The position numbers and the translations under genes were made by a program. The notes under the pieces were generated by a model, which worked only from the letters and a program-made list of their open reading frames with translations, was not told the DNA's origin and searched no databases. A stretch of 64,000 bases of DNA from the human T2T-CHM13v2.0 reference genome, Homo sapiens, in NCBI RefSeq assembly GCF_009914755.1, contig NC_060947.1; one strand, written 5' to 3'. Shown here in pieces: positions 3,001 through 14,737 of the stretch. Position 1 is the first letter of the stretch; each line of letters opens with the position of its first letter.

Positions 3001-3796
3001 AATTAAGAAAAATAATTATAATGCAACCTAAAATAATAAAATATTTAGGAATAAATATCACAAAAGAAGGGCAAAGACTATACTCTGAAAACTACAACAT
3101 ATTGTTGCAAAAGTAAACATTTAAATAAATGGAAAAACATATCATTTTCATGGATTAGAAGATTTAATATTGTCAGATTGGCAATATTCCCCAAATTTAC
3201 CTACAGATTTAACATAATCCATCCTTATCAGAATCCCAGTTTATTTCTTTTTTAGAAATTCACAAGTGGAACGTAAAATTCATATGAAATTTCAAGGGAC
3301 TCAGACTAATTAAAAAAATATTAAAAAACAAAATTGAATAACTTACATTTCCTTATTTAAAATGTATTACAAAGCAACAGTAATCAAGACATTGGAACTG
3401 GTATAAACATAGACAAATGGATTAGGGGAATCAAATTGAGAGTCCAGAAATAAACCCATACATCTATAGTCAAATGATTTTTGACCATTCAATGGGGAAG
3501 GAAGAGCACTATCAAACAAATTGTGCTGGTATAACTGCATAGCCACATGCAAAAGAAAGAAATTGGACCCTTACCTTAGACTATATAAAAAAATTAACTC
3601 AAAATGAATCAAAGAACTAAATGAAAAAGTTAAAACCATAAAACTTTTGGAAAAAACATAGGAAAAAAATCTTCATGACCTCTTTTTGGGCAATCGATTC
3701 TTATATGTGAAAAAACACAGGCATCAAATGAAAAGAATAGATAAATCGGACTTTATTTTTATCAAAATAAAAACTTTTGTGTTTCAAAGGACACTA
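1..3796 (+). mobile_element. Old degenerate LINE-1 (L1M-type), inter-ORF/ORF2 region
   Basis: A-rich + strand; interrupted ORF2-like peptides (MLGHKINLIKFKRIE, ILYIEYPKESTKSLLELVNEFSKV) with many stops and frameshifts. Confidence 0.9.
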
Positions 3797-4460: not shown

Positions 4461-4574
4461 TTTTTTTATTATTATACTTTAAGTTCTAGGGTACATGTGC
4501 ACAACATGCAGGTTTGTTACATATGTATACATGCGCCATGTTGGTGTGCTGCACCCATTAACTCATCATTTACA
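4461..4574 (-). mobile_element. L1PA 3'-end fragment (~115 bp)
   Basis: ttattattatactttaagttctagggtacatgtgcacaac is the reverse complement of a primate L1 3' terminus. Confidence 0.9.
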
Positions 4575-4804
4575 CTCTCATTTTTTGCACTCAGGTTCAG
4601 CATACTTACTAGCTTTCATTTAAAACATGCCAAATACTTTACTAGTCTGGGGATTTGTCCATGGAATGTTATTTATCTTACCACTTCTCTGACTCATTCC
4701 TTATTCTTGTGACAGTTCTAAGGTTCAGTGTCATTTCAACATTCCTCCATAACCCTATGTAAATTACATCCTTAAAATAACATTTAAAATAACATTTTAA
4801 ATGT

Positions 4805-5562: not shown

Positions 5563-7250
5563 TGTGATAGGCCGAGTAATGGTCCCCAAAGATACTTAGA
5601 TCCTAACCCCTTGCACTTATGAATGTTGCCTTATATGGAAAAAGAGAATTCACAAAGATGATTGTGGAAGATGGGAGATTATTCTGTATTATCTGATAGA
5701 ACCTAAGGTCAATCACACAAGTTCATAAAAGAGTGAGGCAGAGGCGAATTTGACACAGAAGAAGGAAATGTGACTACTGAAGAAAAATGCTATGCTGCTG
5801 GCTGTAAATAGGAAGGAAGGGGCCCATGAGATAAGGAATGCAGCTCTAGGAGCTGGGAAAGTCAAGGAAACAGACCCTCCTCTAGAGTCCCCAGAGGGAG
5901 TATGGCAATGTTGACACCTTATTTTCAGCCTAGTGAAACTGATTTTGAACTTCTGACCTCCAGGTTTGTAAGATACTAAATGCGTGTATTTTAAAGCTAC
6001 CAAATTTATGGCAATTCATTAGAGCAGCCATAGGGATCTATCACAATGTTTGGTCCCTGGAAGTGGGTTGCTGCTATAAGAAATATCTAAAAATGTGGAA
6101 GTGGCTTTGCAACTGGATAATAGCTATAGACTGGAATAATTTTCAGGAGCATTATATAACAACCTTAGATTATGTTGAACAGATCATTAATAGAAATATG
6201 AATGTTCAAAGTGTTCCTGGTGAGAGCTCAGACATGAGGAACACAGTAGAGAAAGTCTATATTGTCTTAGAGAACACCTAAATTATCATAAACAAACTAT
6301 TGATAGAAATAAAATGTCAAAGGTGTTGCTGGTGAATGCTTAGAAAGAAATTAGTAACATAATATCAGAAAAGGGAGTTTGTGTTATATAGCATCAGAAA
6401 TCCTACCTGAATTGTGCTCTACAATTATGTGGAAAGCAGGACTTGTAAGCAATGAACTTGAATATTTAGCTGAGCAGATTTTCATGCAAAGGATTAAAGG
6501 AATGGCCTGTTTTTTATTGCTGTTTATAGTAAAATGCCAGAGGAAAGACATAAATTGAGGGAAGAACTGTTAAGCAAAAAGAAACCAGAATTCAATGATA
6601 TGAGAAATTTTCAGCCTATCCAGATTGCAAAAGACACCAAAATTAGGAAATTCATTGCCACAAAATCATCCTCCAGAGATAAAATCAAGGGCGTGGCTAG
6701 ACATCCTTTTGTTAGTGCCTTTAAGGGATCAAAAGATCAAAGTATTCAATCACATAGATGGTGTTTTGAAGAGATATGGGGTGTGCTTCTCAGAATAAGC
6801 AAGGAATAGAGATGGGATTTTCTATGAGGGATCTTGAAGAAGCCTCTTGTCTAATGGCATGAATCCCCATGACATACATAAAAGGCCTGTAAGTTTTTGA
6901 CAATGTTATATCAGCAGAAACAATGCCAGCTTAGACTGAAAGGGACAAATAGAGGAAGAAATGAAAGAAGTCTACAGGACTCTCAAAATTTGACAGGAGG
7001 AAGCAGGCTGATAAAACTACTCAGCTGTAAACATATGCTACCATTCAAAATAAAGGAACAATGACTGAGGGCAGAACCTAGAGGCCAGAGGGCAGATTTA
7101 TGACCCCAGGTGAAGTCATAGGATCAGAGTCATCAAAGGGAGGAGTCTCAAGCCTTAGAATATTCTCAGGCCTTGAAACCTAATGGTTGGATTTTGAAAA
7201 TGCTTGGATTTGAGACTCCTTTTTCTTTCCACTTTTTCCCTTGTGGAATG
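5563..7250 (+). mobile_element. MaLR MLT1-type LTR (~5563-6045) followed by MLT-internal sequence
   Basis: tgtgatagg...aatggtccccaaagat start; LTR-typical ttctgacctccag...aagatactaaatg; then a MaLR internal-type stretch (aaaatgtggaagtggctttgcaactgg). Confidence 0.7.
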
Positions 7251-7306: not shown

Positions 7307-7761
<455 letters not shown>

Positions 7762-8189
7762 GAGCATCTTATTATTAATTGAAAAATGACTAAAATATAT
7801 TTTTCAAATGGGGTAAAATCATGACACTCATACAGATATGAAATGAACACATGCTAAAAGAAAAAGATGTTATGACTGCTTCAAAAGGGAAACCAAAGAG
7901 TTGATATGGGAATATTCATCAGTAATATTAAATGATTGTGTAAATGGAGGCAAAACTGGTTTCATAAGGTGAAGAACAACCGAACCTCTACTAAAGAATA
8001 TGCTGTACATGTATCAGCAGCCTACAACTAACAAAAGGCTATAAAAGACTTCACAGATAATGTAAGGCTGGAATCAGATAACCTGCAGTGGTGTCCTAAA
8101 GACAGAGCAAAGTTTTCCACTGAAGCACACATTTATTTTTATAATGTCAAAATCAGGTAGAGAGTTATAGTTCCCTCAAAATCAAGGTT

Positions 8190-8345
8190 CAGTCATTAGC
8201 GTGACTAGATCAGTGTCATAGACATTTCTAGGCTGAGGTCTGATAAGGGACCAGTGGACACCAATGAAATCACAAAGTCTAGGGATGTCACAAAGGCAGC
8301 TAGCTCCCTGACCAATAAGGGCCTGGAGCAGAGGGATACAATAGG
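8190..8345 (+). promoter_or_regulatory. H2AP proximal promoter (two CCAAT boxes, ACAAAG motifs, degenerate X-box)
   Basis: CCAAT at 8261 and 8312; alignable to the H2AL3 upstream region at 11700-11845. Confidence 0.6.
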
Positions 8346-8408
8346 CAGGACTAAGCACTAGTGTCCTCAGAGACCTACTTGAGCTAGAGAATCAAGCAGA
8401 GCTGATGA

Positions 8409-8783
<375 letters not shown>

Positions 8784-8882
8784 AGACTGGGTCCCAGAGC
8801 CTTGAAGGGAACCTCACAGGCTTAGCCAGGGCAAAAATGTGTCACAGCTGAGGAATATCTGCTGTTGTCATCAACAAGTGCT

Positions 8883-8888
8883 ATTAAA
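8883..8888 (+). terminator. Poly(A) signal ATTAAA of H2AP
   Basis: 100 nt after the stop, followed by a GT/T-rich downstream element; same position in the paralog (12476-12481). Confidence 0.75.
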
Positions 8889-8969
8889 GGATGTAAATCC
8901 ATGAGTATGTTTCTGACTCCTCTCAGTTTCTGTCGCTTTGGGTTGTAGGTGTCTGTAAGACATCCAGGG

Positions 8970-9362
8970 GAAGCTATCCCCAGAGAGCTGAAGGCGGGGA
9001 AGGGGTGGCCAGTGTGGTGTTTGAATCAGTGATTTAGAGGGGGCAGTTTCCAATGGTGACAGTGAGGGCGCCGGCCCTGTGGGGAGGAACTGGCTGGGAT
9101 AAAGACACCGAGACTTCCTCATTGTCTCTGAACAGGAAGGCCTTGTGAGGCCAGGGAGTTGGCTGGGGGCCTCTGAGGCTTGTTGAATTCCCAGCCTGAT
9201 GCTGGGGCCTGAGGTGGAGCTGCAGACTCTGACTGAGGTGCAGGAGGCTTTATTCAGGATAGCAAAGGTCTGAAGTCAGAGGGCGGTGGCCACAGGGGTG
9301 GGTGGAGAGGGGCACACTGGCTGGCATGAAGTTCATGGGACAGGGGCTTTACATGGAGATTG
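8970..9362 (+). repeat. Copy 1 of ~400-bp near-identical direct repeat (copy 2 at 12563-12958)
   Basis: Direct by-eye alignment, about 16 differences. Confidence 0.95.
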
Positions 9363-9959
9363 AAGAGTGAAGGAGAAACCATCATGAAAAATGCAAAAAA
9401 GAAATGATGGCCTGCTGGATTTCATTTCTTATTTCTTTATGCCCTGCCTTATTATGAAAGCGGATTTGAGACAGGGATTATTAGCTAGTGCTGTGAATAT
9501 ATCTTTTTGTCCTCTCTTCAGGACACTGGTAAAATAAATCAAAAGAATATATAAAATTTATGATCTGGCCTAAGATGGGCAATTCAAGAAGTTCTTAATG
9601 GTTGTTAATTATTAATGAATCAGCTTAATTATAAATGTATTTCATTTAAAACACGATTAACAATTTCATTTTTAAATTGAATACTTATTCATTATAATTA
9701 CCATATATTGCATAGAGCACCAAAGGATTATTAGTGACTCAATCCATGTTTTAAGAGGTATAGAAATAATTCTGTCCCAAGTGGCGGCCTCTAAAGCACA
9801 TGCAATCCTTTTCAAAACTTCCTGCTCTGTGCTAAGTTTAAAAGAGGTGTCACATCAAGTGTTGTAGCAATCTGTCCCCTTGCCTGTGAGTGCCCACATT
9901 TTAGGTTTCCACCTCTTCCTTGGGTCCTTGGGAGCCACAGTCTGCTGCCTGCTGGCCTT

Positions 9960-10190
9960 TCACAGAGGGTTGGTCAGAGGCTGCACAGCCGGCTCCAACA
10001 ATGGGAGCTGCGGGCCTGGGTTTCAGATCCCAGTTCACCACTTCCTGGACATGTGATATTAGACCTTCAATTACTCCCTCTGAGCAGTCCTCCTCATGTG
10101 TAAAATGGGGGTAGTAAAAGTCTCTCCATCTGTGGGTTTTCCCAAGATTGAGTCCACTTGTGCCTGTAAACTGCTGTTCCACACAGTGCA
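9960..10190 (+). mobile_element. MIR fragment
   Basis: ctgggtttcagatcccagttcaccactt...ctcatgtgtaaaatgggg MIR core. Confidence 0.6.
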
Positions 10191-11440
10191 TGCACAGGGT
10201 CCCCCTTAATAAACAGTTGCATCTCCTTCCTTCCCTAACAGCAGACCTGTAGGCAGGCTTCCCCAAGGTGCAGTGGTCCTGGTTCTCAGGTGACCACTGG
10301 GGACTTAGGCCACTGGCTGTGAGAACCACATCCTGCTGAGCCCTGTGGAGAGACAGGAGGAATTTGGGAATATTTAATTTATGTAAGCAAAAGAGACTTT
10401 ATAATCGAACACGTCAATACCATCCAGAGGTAGGAAAACTTTACATAATCACACAATCAGAGGTGGAGCTATTTCAGAATTACAAGCACATAGACATATA
10501 GGCACAGAGAGATAGAGCTTATAGCTTCAGTTCTACAATTTCAACCGTGAGTCAAGTGTAAATAGAAACAGTAAAGTTCTCTGATCCAAATATAAAAAAA
10601 AAAACTGTTCTCCTCTAAGAGAGTATAAAATTCTTAATTGATTTGAGCTATAAATAGACAAATGGACAAAAGACTGTCAAACCAGATTTTCTGTTGTCTT
10701 TTACACAACAGAGACTGTATTTCTATGAATCATTAACTCATTTACACAGCTCTCCAGATGGTTGGATCCTAAAACTGAATTCCCAACCATTTGGTCAACA
10801 ATGAAAATAACTTACCTAATGTCAATGAACAACAACAACAACAACAAAATACAGAATTAGTAGAGAAAAATATTGAAATAAAAATTAAATGTTGAAACTA
10901 AAATTAGAAAAACACAATGAACAAAGACTTATTTGGGCTTTGGAGTCACCTAGATGAGGCAAGCAAAGACATTCCTGGGTTTAACCAAGCATGAAGCACA
11001 CATCTCTGTCACCAAGTTTGCCTAGCTCTGATAGATGAATCCACTGGGTATAACATTGTGACCTTTAAAAACAGGTAAAAGGTATTTTCTAACAGAGTAA
11101 AATCATAACACTCAAACACCTATGATATGGAAATGCGTTGAAACAATCGATTAACTCGTGAGGAAATTGGCGGATATTATAAGCCATTCAAAAGGGAATT
11201 CAAAGAATAAACATAGGAACATTGATCATGAATGTTTAAGTAAATGTATACATGGAGGCAAAATTGGGAGCAAGGCAGTGAACATGTCTGTAAGTGACTT
11301 ACAGCTTCTAGAGGGAATGTAAATTAGCTCACAGACAATGCAAGGCTAAACTTAAAGAACCTGGAGTGGTGTCCTAAAGACAGGACAATACTTTCATTGA
11401 CACAATTTTTTGCTAAAATGTTAAATAGAAAATGAGCTTT

Positions 11441-11726
11441 TCCTTAAAAATAAGTTCCAGCTACTAGGGCAACCAGGTTCCTCTCAAAAAGAAGTTCCAG
11501 TTACTGGGGTGACCAGGTTCCTCTCAAAAAGAAGTTCCAGTTACTAGGGCAACCAGGTTCCTCTCAAAAAGAAGTTCCAGTTGCTAGGGTGACCAGGTTC
11601 CTCTCAAAAAGAAGCTCCAGTTACTAGGGTGACCAGGTTCCTTTCAAAAAGAAGCTCCGGTTACTGGGGCAACCAGGTCCCTCTCAAAAGGAAGTTCCAG
11701 TTGCTAGGGTGATCAGGTTCCTCTCA
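11441..11726 (+). repeat. 40-bp minisatellite, ~7 copies, in the H2AL3 promoter
   Basis: Unit ctctcaaaaagaagttccagttactagggcaaccaggttc repeats with an exact 40-bp period. Confidence 0.97.
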
Positions 11727-11729
11727 TGG

Positions 11730-11850
11730 GCTTTTCTAGGCTGAGGCCTGATCAGAGCCCAGTGGACACCAATGACATCAAAAAGTGGAGGTTGTCACAA
11801 AGGCAACTCCCTGACCAATGAGGGGCTGGAGCATAGGGATACAGTGGGTG
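11730..11850 (+). promoter_or_regulatory. H2AL3 proximal promoter: CCAAT (11769), CRE-like TGACATCA (11773), ACAAAG, CCAAT (11815)
   Basis: Motifs seen directly; homologous to the H2AP promoter. Confidence 0.6.
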
Positions 11851-11933
11851 GCAATAAGCACTGGTACCTTGAGAGGCTCAGGCCAGCAGGAAAATCAAGC
11901 TGTGCCAATTGGGGCAAAACCCAGCAATTCCTC

Positions 11934-12380
11934 ATGGCTGGAAACAAAATGTTCTGTAGGCCTAGGAGACAACGCCTTTCCCATTCCAGAAGAGCAGAGC
12001 TGCAGTTTCCTGTCAGCCACTTGGAACGCTGCCTGCGAGAAAGTCAGCATGCCCGGCACCTGAGCTCAACCACACCTGTTTTCCTGGCTGGTGTTCTAGA
12101 GTATCTGACAGCCAACATCCTGGAAAAGGTGGGCAAGGAGGTCAAGAACAGCTGCAGGCTGTGCATCACCCCAGAACACGTGAAGAGGGCACTGCAAAAG
12201 GATGAGCAGCTCAGATGGATCTTGGAGTTGGAAGATGACACCCACTCTCAAGTAGAAGAAATGCCCCAATCTGAGGAGGAAGAGGAGGAGGAGGAGGAGA
12301 AGGAGGAGGAGATGGTGGTGCTGGTGGTGATGGGGGGAAGGAGGAGGAGGAGGAGAAGAAGGAGGAGGAAGGATTCCTGA
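11934..12380 (+). CDS. H2AL3: Short histone H2A variant H2A.L3, 148 aa from ATG 11934, intronless (expression status uncertain)
   Basis: Clear H2A fold SRRAELQFPVSHLERCLR...PVFLAGVLEYLTANILE...ITPEHV...KDEQL; ATG 11934 is at the position matching the H2AP ATG. Confidence 0.88.
   Translation: MAGNKMFCRPRRQRLSHSRRAELQFPVSHLERCLRESQHARHLSSTTPVFLAGVLEYLTANILEKVGKEVKNSCRLCITPEHVKRALQKDEQLRWILELEDDTHSQVEEMPQSEEEEEEEEEKEEEMVVLVVMGGRRRRRRRRRRKDS
12273..12371 (+). repeat. (GAG)n/(GTG)n/(AGG)n coding microsatellite
   Basis: Encodes E9KE3-MVVLVVMGG-R10K. Confidence 0.95.
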
Positions 12381-12475
12381 GTTTCGGAGCCATGCGGGAC
12401 TTCATCAGCAACCTCCTCCAGATGCCAAAATTCCCATAGATGAAAGACCCCAGGTTGCTTCCATCTGCCCAAGCT

Positions 12476-12481
12476 ATTAAA
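12476..12481 (+). terminator. Poly(A) signal ATTAAA of H2AL3
   Basis: ~95 nt after the stop; conserved with the H2AP copy; no histone stem-loop seen. Confidence 0.7.
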
Positions 12482-12562
12482 CTGTGTAAATGCATGACAG
12501 TGCTCCTGACTCGTCTCCGTTTCCGTTGCTTTGGGTTGGAGGTGTCTGTGAGACATCAAGGA

Positions 12563-12958
12563 GAAGCTATCCCCAGAGAGCTGAAGCGGGGGAAGGGGTG
12601 GCCAGTGTGGAGTGTTTGAATCAGTGATTTAGAGGGGGCAGTTTCCAATGGTGACAGTGAGGGTGCCGGCCCTGTGGGGAGGAACTGGCTGGGATAAAGA
12701 CACCGAGACTTCCTCATTGTCTCTGAACAGGAAGGCCTTGTGAGGCCAGGGAGTTGGCTGGGGTCCTCCGAGGCTTGTTGAATTCCCAGCCTGATGCTGG
12801 GGCCTAGGGTGGAGCTGCAGACTCTGACTGAGGTGCAGGAGGCTTTATTCAGGATAGCAAAGGTCTGAAATCAGAGGGCAGTGGCCACAGAGGTGGGTGG
12901 AAAGAGGGCACACGGGCTGGCATGAACTTCATGGGACAGGGGATTTACATGGAGATTG
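12563..12958 (+). repeat. Copy 2 of ~400-bp near-identical direct repeat
   Basis: Aligns to 8970-9362. Confidence 0.95.
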
Positions 12959-13595
12959 TGTTGGGATTGTCCTTAGGGCTATTTGGGAGATATGCTTGTC
13001 TGAATCCCAGAAGCCTTTCTTGCCACATGATTTCCACTGAACCTCATATTCCCAGGCAACTCATTGTGAAGATGCCCACCCCACCACTGGATGATTCCTT
13101 ATGGAGAGCTATAGAGCATTCCTAGCTTTAGCCCAGATGGTCACTTTCTCCTCTGTGCATTTGAGCAGCAAGCAGGCCTCTCTCCAGCATCTACAGGAAG
13201 GAAGTCTCCTTCAGCTGATCAAATCATGGTGACAACAGCGCCCTCTCCACTTGCCAAAGTGAAACATCTTTGTTTTCAGGGTATGTGTTCCTGCTAGTCC
13301 AGTGTCCTCCATTCAAGTGAGTCCCTCTAGGATGGGTAATGGCAGTGAACTGATCATTTTCCTCAGATCTTGACATGTTGATTAAATAGCTGTCTGGTGT
13401 TTAAAAGCTGTTGATGTTGCTTATGGCTGTGGCTTATTGTAGAACTAGATATAATGTCCTGGATACACTGGAATGCACATCTGAGGACTTCATTCAAGGC
13501 AGGAGAAGCCATAGTAGGTGGGTGGCCCATGGCAGATGAGTCCCTCTGTGTAGTCAGGTGGTCACCTTACAGTTTATGCAGTCGTCAACACTAAC

Positions 13596-13608
13596 GGTCA
13601 CTCTGACC
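13596..13608. promoter_or_regulatory. Perfect palindromic estrogen response element
   Basis: GGTCActcTGACC matches the GGTCAnnnTGACC consensus; function untested. Confidence 0.5.
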
Positions 13609-14737
13609 TTGTAAGGACCCGGGCTTCTGGGCTCTTTCAGACTCTGTTTCATGCCTGAGGTGGAGTTTGGAGGTTGACCCTGGATGAGCCCCTGTTGCAA
13701 GCTCTCTGCAGAGTCAAGGGGCATGGGAGAGTCAGCAGGAGGCACTGCTATCCCTTTAAGAATTGTGCTCAGCTGTGCTCGTGGGTTTCAGAGGAATCGT
13801 GGGGGGCCACAGCCAGCATAGCTTCAGACTAATGCATCACCCTGCCAGATCCCCCTTCCACACATGCAAGGAATTCTACACTCAGGGGAGGTGGGGAGGC
13901 AGAGAGAATCACTGTTATTGGGAAGGCATGAGCCCACCCATATTTAGGCCTTTTGTGCATTTCTAACAGGAGGGAGGGAAAGGTGAGGAAGGAGTCTCTC
14001 TGGCCTGTATCCTGTGGTCAGGACAGCACTGGTGGCCAGTGTCCTATTGGGAGTGTGAAAACTAACGCCCAAGTGGGCAAGGACAGAGGCCGGGGTGACT
14101 GTGGCTGCCAACCAGGCCAGGGATCACAAGCAGTGTCAGGGCAGGCTGGTGCCAGACTCAGGTCAAGACTGCAGAAAACTTCATGTGTGAAGATAGACAA
14201 GCCCCAGAGTCAAGCCTGAGGGCAGGAGACTTGGAGGGTAAAGGCAACTTTTTGTTGGCTTTACCGCAAGGCCTGGTTATCAGGCTCGTCTCCCACCTAG
14301 AGCATCTTTTGGGAAGCAAAGCATTTTGAAGGCCCAGGTCTCCTGTTCCCTTTATGTGATAGATCCTACATGATGTAGCCTATGGGAGATGGCCTGACTC
14401 CTTAGAGAGTACCTCCGTTACTCCCAAAATAGGAGTCTAGAAAGAGAGGTACTTCTATCAACATCTAACACATCATTTTCCTAATCCTCAGATTACAAAG
14501 TGGCAGCTCACATACCTAATCTGGACAGCAGATGAGATCATTAGAACTACAATGCTGTTTTTAAGGAAAATTATTTTGTTGCCAACATTGAAAAATCTAG
14601 ATCTTTCATCTGAAAATCTCAATTTCTGGGTTTCCTTAGAAAATCAAAATGTCTCGGTATATATGTGGCTACAGTTAGATAGAAATAATTAGCTGCTACC
14701 CCATTAAGACGAGATATTTAGTTTCCTACATTCCTCA

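What the first reader, a model, noticed from the sequence alone, without database searches (positions are those of the whole stretch)
8970..12958. ~400-bp, ~95%-identical block downstream of both poly(A) signals despite highly diverged genes
Seen: 8970-9362 and 12563-12958 differ at roughly 16 places by eye, with a ~99-nt perfect run. Identity drops through the poly(A) region and is low in the CDS, and homology ends abruptly after acatggagattg. Inference: a much more recent gene-conversion tract, or a homogenised shared 3' regulatory element, outside the transcripts. Direct repeats 3.6 kb apart would also allow NAHR that cleanly deletes or duplicates H2AL3 with its promoter.
Basis: partly seen in the sequence, partly recalled or inferred. 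Interest (0 to 1): 0.7.

Follow-up and report, generated by a model that had tools for sequence, protein, structure and literature searches.

The report
Gene-conversion island behind short H2A genes
A 400-base stretch just behind four testis histone genes and pseudogenes on the human X chromosome is 88-96% identical between them although the genes are only 52-90% alike, most likely because the copies have kept overwriting one another there; the process is known, but this exchange likely went on after the genes were thought to have stopped exchanging.

Summary
The block is real: 8970-9362 and 12563-12958 differ by 14 substitutions and 3 gap columns in 396. The promoters are 75% identical and the coding parts 52-61%.

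It is not only a pair. The same block lies behind two more X loci, likely H2AL1Q (1.08 Mb away) and the pseudogene H2AL1MP, and, diverged by 29-40%, in four old cassette copies. Against those old copies the block did not evolve more slowly than its flanks. The four Xp copies form a young clade (100/100) on a long, GC-biased stem. That points to recurrent interlocus gene conversion, not purifying selection.

H2AP's copy is a mosaic: H2AL3-like on the left, H2AL1Q-like in the middle (permutation p 0.0015-0.005). The abrupt right end is an old ~1.2-kb deletion in the H2AL1Q/H2AL3 lineage, not a tract end. The 99-nt run alone is not significant.

Conversion among short H2A genes is published. Exchange between the H2A.P and H2A.L clades that skips the genes and includes pseudogenes was not found in my searches. 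What starts the exchange (G-rich terminator, meiotic hotspot or chance) is open. No other primate genome was available.

The parts
8970..9362 (+). Homogenised 3' flank block behind H2AP; starts about 66 nt after the annotated transcript end; the most G-rich 393-nt stretch of the window on the sense strand
   Evidence: 96.4% to 12563-12958; G fraction 0.394, reached by 0 of 1273 scanned windows; GC skew 0.36
12563..12958 (+). Homogenised 3' flank block behind H2AL3
8970..9168 (+). Left sub-tract: H2AP groups with H2AL3 (3 of 199 differences; 15 of 197 to L1)
   Evidence: at 13 sites up to 9109 where P matches only one of L3/L1, 12 favour L3
9110..9306 (+). Middle sub-tract: H2AP groups with the X:36.316-Mb locus (likely H2AL1Q), 1 difference in 197 nt, perfect runs of 132 and 64 nt
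   Evidence: at 10 such sites from 9169 on, 8 favour L1; permutation p 0.0015 (0.005 with doublets merged)
9307..9362 (+). Right end: H2AP shares two sites (9307, 9347) with the H2A.L.2 pseudogene against L1+L3; weak
12934..12964 (.). Junction of an old ~1.2-kb deletion shared by H2AL3 and L1; it sets the right limit of homology to H2AP and L2
   Evidence: 1,185 nt skipped against X:29.185 Mb and 1,197 nt against X:136.87 Mb; same junction in L1
9363..10359 (+). Ancestral downstream flank kept at H2AP and L2 and lost at L1/L3; not homogenised (21-24% divergent, star-like)
12583..13782 (+). Zone of lowered L1-L3 divergence (78 of 1198, against 128 of 1195 in the neighbouring stretches); begins at the block's left edge and runs ~800 nt past its right edge
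   Evidence: p = 0.0003; part beyond the block against the gene p = 0.005; zone limits chosen after viewing
8880..8969 (+). ATTAAA (8883-8888), transcript end and U/GU-rich downstream stretch of H2AP; transition zone at 81% identity
12473..12562 (+). Same zone of H2AL3 (ATTAAA 12476-12481)
8430..8783 (+). H2AP coding sequence, 117 aa; outside the exchange
   Evidence: hub annotation
11934..12380 (+). H2AL3 coding sequence with GAG-repeat tail; 10% from L1, 24% from L2, 48% from H2AP in the core
   Evidence: hub annotation
8175..8429 (+). H2AP promoter, homologous to 11683-11933 at 75%; not homogenised

Best explanation
The 400-base block is nearly identical behind four X-linked short-H2A loci, most likely because it has been copied back and forth between them by recurrent, GC-biased interlocus gene conversion while the genes in front of it diverged. 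Shown: the four copies are 4-12% apart in the block but 12-29% apart in the promoter and 10-48% in the coding core; they share many derived changes against four older copies; H2AP's copy is a patchwork; the right edge is an old deletion in the L1/L3 lineage. Inferred: DNA breaks in the 3' flank of these testis genes are repaired from a paralogue on the same X chromosome in tracts of a few hundred bases. Each event restores the identity that the next one needs. H2AP and L2 can exchange with L1/L3 only over the 400 bases between the poly(A) region and the deletion. Tracts reaching into the H2AP coding part would be stopped by divergence or removed by selection. The latest events (H2AP with H2AL3 and with L1) would fall within the apes. 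The block likely has no function that needs this identity. The trigger is untested; my odds: lesions in a G-rich termination zone (R-loop/G4) 0.3, meiotic PRDM9-type hotspots 0.3, chance survival of a homology island 0.4.
For: Triplet H2AP/L2/X:29.185: downstream flank star-like (private changes 100, 77, 110 of 873 columns), block lopsided (21, 13, 113 of 363), Fisher p = 1e-14. H2AP against X:29.185 differs more in the block (104 of 332) than in the flank (218 of 965), p = 0.002. Eight-row block tree: four Xp copies 100/100 on a stem of 0.25, P+L1+L3 97/97; in the seven-row promoter tree only L1+L3 is supported. Mosaic break p = 0.0015-0.005. Weak-to-strong against strong-to-weak changes: 32:12 on the stems, 24:38 on outgroup tips, p = 0.0007; block GC 53-58% against 44-48% in the old copies. 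Tract sizes fit the published mean of 250 bp and GC bias of 67% (10.1101/135152, passages). Conversion over 1.06 Mb between L1 and L3 is documented in dog (10.1101/165936 section 10).
Against: One genome only: no orthologues, no polymorphism. The AU test did not reject, at 0.05, a block tree that keeps L1+L2+L3 together without H2AP (p = 0.063). GC bias against the flank tips (41:35) is borderline, p = 0.053; with three outgroups the stem was 13:8, binomial p = 0.38. Three of the four sites pairing P+L1 against L3+L2 are open to doubt: two (9174, 9285) are CpG-type and may be parallel changes, and 9211-9212 is one doublet. Outgroup alignments at 30-40% divergence are noisy (P to X:29.185 is 0.31 pairwise, 0.39 in the eight-row alignment). 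Donor and recipient cannot be told apart. Dates rest on recalled primate split times and on tract edges chosen after viewing.
Confidence: 0.88

Rival explanations
1. The block is a shared 3' regulatory element (terminator or enhancer) held similar by purifying selection at all four loci.
For: It starts at a fixed place after the poly(A) site, is G-skewed in all eight copies (skew 0.34-0.46), and all six pairs among the four loci are closest there.
Against: No slowing against four old copies, one of them the likely H2A.Q locus: 29-40% divergence and a stem of 0.25. Selection does not reshuffle which paralogue is nearest along 400 nt. The pseudogene takes part. No Rfam match fell in either block among 8 matches at E up to 5.
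Confidence: 0.04
2. Conversion is the mechanism, but converted tracts are fixed by selection because the loci need the same, fast-changing terminator or enhancer sequence.
For: The homogenised zone begins at the same left edge in all pairs. A toy model at the genome-average conversion rate kept a 400-nt island under 7% for 100 My in 1 of 150 runs, so something extra is needed.
Against: L1 and L3 evolve neutrally in catarrhines and L2 is a pseudogene (10.1101/165936 section 5), yet they take part. A locally high break rate plus GC bias explains the same pattern without selection.
Confidence: 0.05
3. A single recent event (one conversion or re-duplication between H2AP and H2AL3) made the pair.
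For: H2AP-H2AL3 is the closest pair over the whole block (4%, against 5% and 6%) and the copies are 3.6 kb apart.
Against: L1 and L2 carry the same derived block. H2AP is closer to L1 (1 of 197) than to L3 in the middle. L1-L3 divergence also drops in the block (24 of 394 against 267 of 2327, p = 0.001). L2 is at 10-12% here against 22-28% in the promoter.
Confidence: 0.02
4. The block is a dispersed repeat, a hidden gene or a structured RNA.
For: Copies exist on chr2 and chr16. An antisense ATG frame of 83 aa lies at 8871-9122.
Against: Searches found eight block copies in all, each inside a copy of the short-H2A cassette with its flanks; the tool gives lower bounds. The antisense frame is 53 aa in H2AL3 and shifted in L1. 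No Rfam match.
Confidence: 0.01

Closest known systems
Concerted evolution of H2A.B and H2A.L loci (Molaro, Young, Malik; 10.1101/165936 and PMC5880237)
   Same: Same gene family and loci; conversion over about 1 Mb between L1 and L3; the ~2.5-kb dog L1-L3 tract resembles the human L1-L3 homology of about 2.4-2.8 kb at 85-88%.
   Different: That work reports conversion within a clade and covering the genes. It states that primate H2A.L.2 has been exempt since it died and that catarrhine L1 and L3 no longer convert. Here the tract skips the genes, crosses the H2A.P/H2A.L boundary and includes those loci. Three short motifs from the poly(A) region and block were absent from its 4 readable supplement files; its supplementary figures and tables could not be read.
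Red/green opsin pattern: non-coding parts homogenised, selected exons divergent (Fawcett and Innan 2011, PMC3924837, passages)
   Same: Paralogues are closer outside the coding sequence than inside; X-linked; large indels end conversion.
   Different: There, small peaks of divergence sit in a largely converted, 30-40-My-old duplicate. Here one small island of identity sits in a cassette whose gene clades split about 100 My ago, and it lies outside the transcript.
Genome-wide human non-allelic gene conversion (10.1101/135152, passages)
   Same: Tracts of a few hundred bases, GC bias, raised GC content.
   Different: That study finds that duplicates escape conversion as they diverge, with a small average effect. 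This island has apparently not escaped, although its surroundings are 21-48% divergent.
G-rich RNA polymerase II pause/termination sites that form R-loops (PMC5535834, passages; the primary papers seen only as its citations)
   Same: G-rich, G-skewed sense strand right after the poly(A) site, with G4Hunter peaks of 1.6-1.8.
   Different: No R-loop or termination data here; a link to conversion is my inference.

Membership tests
Interlocus gene conversion tract | Local identity between old paralogues far above that of homologous flanks | tested here: met
   14 of 393 against 62 of 250, p = 7e-16; P-L2 40 of 388 against 192 of 924, p = 4e-6
Interlocus gene conversion tract | Shared derived changes with no slowing against outgroup paralogues | tested here: met
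   triplet p = 1e-14; stem 0.25, 100/100
Interlocus gene conversion tract | Local tree differs from the gene tree | tested here: inconclusive
   Block tree puts P with L1+L3 at 97/97 while CDS distances put P far out, but the AU test of L1+L2+L3 without P gave p = 0.063
Interlocus gene conversion tract | Mosaic of short tracts | tested here: met
   23 sites, permutation p 0.0015; 21 after merging doublets, p 0.005
Interlocus gene conversion tract | GC-biased substitutions | tested here: met
   32:12 against 24:38, p = 0.0007; borderline against flank tips, p = 0.053
Interlocus gene conversion tract | Paralogues cluster within species; shared polymorphism | not testable with these tools
   the window's genome has no relatives here
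Conserved non-coding element | Slower evolution than flanks over deep time | tested here: not met
   block 31% against flank 23% to X:29.185; 29-40% to four old copies
Dispersed repeat | Many copies at unrelated insertion sites | tested here: not met
   6 and 7 matches in two genome searches, 8 loci in all, each within the cassette; counts are lower bounds
Segmental duplication (1 kb or more at 90% or more; definition recalled) | Length and identity | tested here: not met
   486 nt at 93% is the whole H2AP-H2AL3 match
NAHR substrate | Direct orientation on one chromosome | tested here: met
   both on +, start-to-start about 3,595 nt
NAHR substrate | Perfect identity of a few hundred bases (threshold recalled) | tested here: not met
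   longest run 99 nt
NAHR substrate | Observed deletion or duplication alleles | not testable with these tools
   no variant catalogue; one paper search gave 0
R-loop/G4 termination zone | G-rich, G-skewed sense strand after the poly(A) site | tested here: met
   skew also in old copies
R-loop/G4 termination zone | RNA:DNA hybrid signal in expressing cells | not testable with these tools
   needs testis DRIP or S9.6 data
PRDM9 hotspot | Exact 13-mer consensus (recalled) in the block | tested here: not met
   0 of 4 Xp blocks; 5 matches in the H2AL3 gene and GAG tail, 1 in L1; the present motif says little about past alleles
PRDM9 hotspot | DMC1 or PRDM9 peak | not testable with these tools
   supplement list of PMC5705219 seen, no file opened

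The most novel reading that the evidence does not exclude
The G-rich transcription-termination zone of testis short-H2A genes is a long-lived, PRDM9-independent hotspot of ectopic repair. It has kept H2A.P and H2A.L loci up to 1.1 Mb apart exchanging DNA for tens of millions of years, after the genes diverged or died, and may still do so in humans. Such sub-kilobase islands would fall below segmental-duplication cut-offs and could be common behind germline genes.
Probability: 0.25. Interest if true: 0.72.

Novelty: new variant of a known kind. Interest (0 to 1): 0.45.

Why it matters
It amends the published view that H2A.L loci leave the conversion pool when their reading frame dies and that H2A.P is an independent single-copy lineage: their 3' flanks likely kept exchanging. 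That suggests break rate and GC bias, not selection for equal proteins, drive at least part of the homogenisation. It also offers a small, sharply bounded natural case for asking what starts non-allelic conversion and how an island escapes divergence. Practical points: short reads in these 400 bases can be mis-assigned among four loci, and a 3.6-kb deletion or duplication of H2AL3 is possible, though H2AL3 is probably non-functional in apes. No disease or fitness effect is shown.

Tried and rejected
- The 99-nt run as evidence of a very recent event: p = 0.15-0.23, rejected.
- Structured RNA: Rfam scan of 7400-14200 gave 8 weak or Alu-derived matches, none in the blocks.
- Hidden ORF: frames are not kept across the four copies.
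- PRDM9 13-mer: no exact match in the blocks; one-mismatch matches are common in this G-rich DNA.
- Upstream+promoter tree: an unresolved star that mixed regions with different histories; its AU test (p = 0.22) says nothing. It was replaced by the promoter-only tree.
- GC bias with three outgroups: weak (13:8; p = 0.38 and 0.044); clearer with four.
- Cross-species flank sequence in the Molaro supplements: three short motifs had 0 hits in 4 of 5 files; file 1, the eight figures and the tables could not be read, and Supplemental Figs S4 and S7 may bear on the novelty claim.
- PRDM9 peak list: not identified among the 6 listed supplement files of PMC5705219; none opened.
- Toy simulation (24 settings x 25 runs): islands under 7% at 100 My in 1, 10, 64 and 107 of 150 runs at conversion:mutation ratios of 20, 60, 200 and 600. 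It is assumption-bound (fixed 400-nt island, hard identity threshold) and only suggests a locally high rate.
- Paper searches with no hits.
Full report
OBSERVATION. The two stretches align over 396 columns with 379 matches, 14 mismatches and 3 gap columns; the longest perfect run is 99 nt. The whole H2AP-H2AL3 match is 486 nt at 93%. Upstream identity is 81% in 8880-8969, 75% in the promoter and 52-61% in the coding part. The contrast between block and promoter has p = 7e-16. The 99-nt run is within chance for this divergence (p = 0.15-0.23). The block starts about 66 nt after the annotated H2AP transcript end; ATTAAA lies at 8883 and 12476.

IT IS A FAMILY OF LOCI. A search of the window's genome with the block gave 6 matches: the two here, X:36.316 Mb (93%), X:37.104 Mb (86%), chr2:123.02 Mb (70%) and chr16:26.51 Mb (69%). 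Further searches added X:29.185 Mb and X:136.87 Mb, so eight loci carry the block; the tool gives lower bounds. X:36.316 has an open H2A.L frame and X:37.104 one with stops. From order, distance and frame state I take them as H2A.L.1/H2AL1Q (L1) and H2A.L.2/H2AL1MP (L2). These names are inferred from 10.1101/165936 and PMC9526256 (passages), not read from an annotation. X:136.87 carries a short-H2A-like frame and is likely H2AQ1P (inferred). X:29.185, chr2 and chr16 are decayed copies of the same cassette with upstream and downstream flanks. A ninth cassette copy at X:37.114 Mb loses homology at 8980, where the block begins.

CONVERSION OR SELECTION. Pairwise divergence among P, L3, L1 and L2 is 4-12% in the block. 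It is 12-29% in the promoter and, in the coding core, 10% for L1-L3, 22-24% for L2 and 43-48% for P. If selection held the block, it should also be closer to the old copies than the flanks are. It is not: P to X:29.185 is 104 of 332 in the block and 218 of 965 downstream, and the four old copies are 29-40% away. In the triplet P, L2, X:29.185 the downstream flank is a star (private changes 100, 77, 110 of 873 columns) and the block is not (21, 13, 113 of 363), p = 1e-14. In the eight-row tree the four Xp copies form a clade (100/100) on a stem of 0.25 changes per site, with P, L1 and L3 inside it (97/97); the promoter tree supports only L1+L3. Against this, an AU test did not reject at 0.05 a block tree with L1, L2 and L3 together without P (p = 0.063), and alignments to the old copies are noisy. 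Changes on the stems run 32 weak-to-strong against 12 strong-to-weak, compared with 24:38 on outgroup tips (p = 0.0007) and 41:35 on the P and L2 flank tips (p = 0.053). Block GC is 53-58% against 44-48% in the old copies. Private changes in the four copies run the other way (6:32), as expected for decay after conversion.

PATCHWORK. Of 23 sites where P matches only one of L3 and L1, 12 of the first 13 (to 9109) favour L3 and 8 of the last 10 favour L1; permutation p = 0.0015, or 0.005 with doublets merged. The longest perfect runs are P-L1 132 and 64 nt, L1-L3 110 nt and P-L3 99 nt. Two sites near the right end pair P with L2. Two of the P+L1 sites are CpG-type and may be parallel changes. 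Direction cannot be read from one genome.

THE EDGES. The right edge is not a tract end. P's flank continues to match L2 and X:29.185 to 10359. H2AL3 skips 1,185 nt relative to X:29.185 and 1,197 nt relative to X:136.87 at 12934-12964, and L1 has the same junction. So L1 and L3 share an old deletion, and 400 nt is all the 3' homology they have left with P and L2. Between L1 and L3 themselves the low-divergence zone runs on to about 13780 (78 of 1198 against 128 of 1195, p = 0.0003; limits chosen after viewing). The left edge, just after the poly(A) region, is common to all pairs, including L1-L3, which are reported to evolve neutrally in catarrhines. Selection on H2AP alone therefore does not explain the left edge.

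AGE (inferred). L1-L3 differ by 78 of 769 in the gene region (8-12%). They are reported to have evolved independently in catarrhines, which I equate with roughly 30-45 My (recalled dates). On that scale P-L3 left (3 of 199, upper limit 4.3%) and P-L1 middle (1 of 197, upper limit 2.8%) fall within about 20 and 12 My. L2 left the pool at 10-12%, well after its coding part (22-24%). Tract edges were chosen after viewing, so these ages lean young.

MECHANISM. Shown: shared derived sequence, mosaicism, GC-skewed changes, a deletion-defined edge. Inferred: breaks in the 3' flank are repaired from a paralogue on the same X chromosome in tracts of a few hundred bases (mean 250 bp and 67% GC bias in 10.1101/135152, passages), and each event preserves the identity needed for the next. 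A toy model kept a 400-nt island under 7% for 100 My in 1 of 150 runs at the genome-average conversion:mutation ratio of 20, and in 64 of 150 at 200. This hints at a locally high rate but depends on its assumptions. One candidate trigger is the sequence itself. The P block has a G fraction reached by 0 of 1273 scanned windows and a skew reached by 5, with G4Hunter peaks of 1.6-1.8. The skew is also present in the old copies (0.34-0.46), so it predates the homogenisation. G-rich pause sites after poly(A) signals form R-loops (PMC5535834, passages). The same observation cuts the other way: skewed copies, including the likely H2A.Q locus, dropped out of the exchange, so skew is not sufficient. 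An exact PRDM9 13-mer (recalled) is absent from all four blocks and present in the L3 and L1 gene tails. My odds for the trigger: terminator lesions 0.3, meiotic hotspot 0.3, chance survival 0.4.

RIVALS. Purifying selection fails the outgroup test. A single P-L3 event fails on L1 and L2. A dispersed repeat, RNA or hidden gene fails on copy context, Rfam and unshared frames. Selection-aided fixation of converted tracts is not excluded. NAHR would remove or duplicate about 3.6 kb with H2AL3, but the perfect run is short and no such allele was found in print; variant catalogues could not be searched.

WHAT IS KNOWN. Molaro et al. describe conversion among H2A.B and among H2A.L loci. They state that primate H2A.L.2 has been exempt since it became a pseudogene and that catarrhine L1 and L3 no longer convert. 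What I saw of each paper: 10.1101/165936, abstract, outline, passages, section 10 whole and part 1 of 2 of section 5; PMC5880237, passages, the supplement list and a motif search of 4 of 5 files (0 hits; figures and tables unreadable); PMC9526256, PMC3924837, 10.1101/135152 and PMC5535834, passages; PMC5705219, supplement list only. Eight searches showed no listing that describes H2A.P-H2A.L exchange or this flank; most hits were seen as listings only, and the library lacks most subscription papers. The closest general pattern is the opsin case of homogenised non-coding DNA around divergent exons.

VERDICT. A real feature, best explained as a long-lived conversion island (confidence 0.88). It is a new variant of a known kind: across gene clades, outside the transcripts, outlasting gene death. 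Function is probably nil and the trigger is open. Interest 0.45; the terminator-hotspot reading has probability 0.25 and interest 0.72 if true.

Noticed in passing
window 11446-11726: 40-bp tandem repeat, 7 copies, just upstream of the H2AL3 promoter; the unit is single at L1, L2 and H2AP. A locus-specific expansion, possibly variable in number.
   Followed up: partly
window 12273-12369; L007 about 4545-4730: GAG-repeat tails of H2AL3 and L1 differ in length and hold exact matches to the recalled PRDM9 13-mer (5 in the H2AL3 gene and tail, 1 in L1).
   Followed up: partly
window 9785-9915; L008 about 5700-5830: Second small island: H2AP and L2 share a 45-nt perfect run (9845-9889) and differ at 11 of 97 in 9785-9884, against 21% around; X:29.185 is clearly more distant there. 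Possibly a separate P-L2 conversion.
   Followed up: partly
L012 1698-5642 (-); L011 4259-5651; L009 3100-5230; L010 4688-6300 (-): Four decayed copies of the short-H2A cassette (X:29.185, X:37.114, chr2:123.02, chr16:26.51 Mb) with upstream and, mostly, downstream flanks, so DNA-level duplicates rather than retrocopies. The chr16 copy lacks most of the gene; the chr2 copy has a ~350-nt high-copy insertion. I did not see them named in the papers read.
   Followed up: partly
L008 6419-6763: At the L2 locus a 345-nt piece of the downstream flank is inverted relative to L1, L3 and the old copies.
   Followed up: no
window 8250-8320 and 11760-11830: Promoter core with two CCAAT boxes (8261, 8312) shared by the four Xp loci, apart from changes to the second box in L1 and L2, and recognisable at X:136.87; looks like true constraint, unlike the block.
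   Followed up: no
window about 10400-11200: Old dispersed repeat upstream of the cassette, about 30 matches at about 70% across the genome, not in the hub's list of longest masked stretches; family not identified.
   Followed up: no
window about 9600-10250 (L012 about 3030-3690): Part of the ancestral downstream flank matches low-copy sites on chr19, 16, 18 and 12 at about 66%.
   Followed up: no
window 8871-9122 (-): 83-aa antisense ATG frame over the block and the H2AP 3' end; 53 aa at H2AL3 and shifted at L1, so likely a by-product of base composition.
   Followed up: yes
window 14083-14531: L1-L3 divergence rises from about 11% to 16-31%: the outer edge of the older whole-gene L1-L3 conversion tract.
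   Followed up: partly
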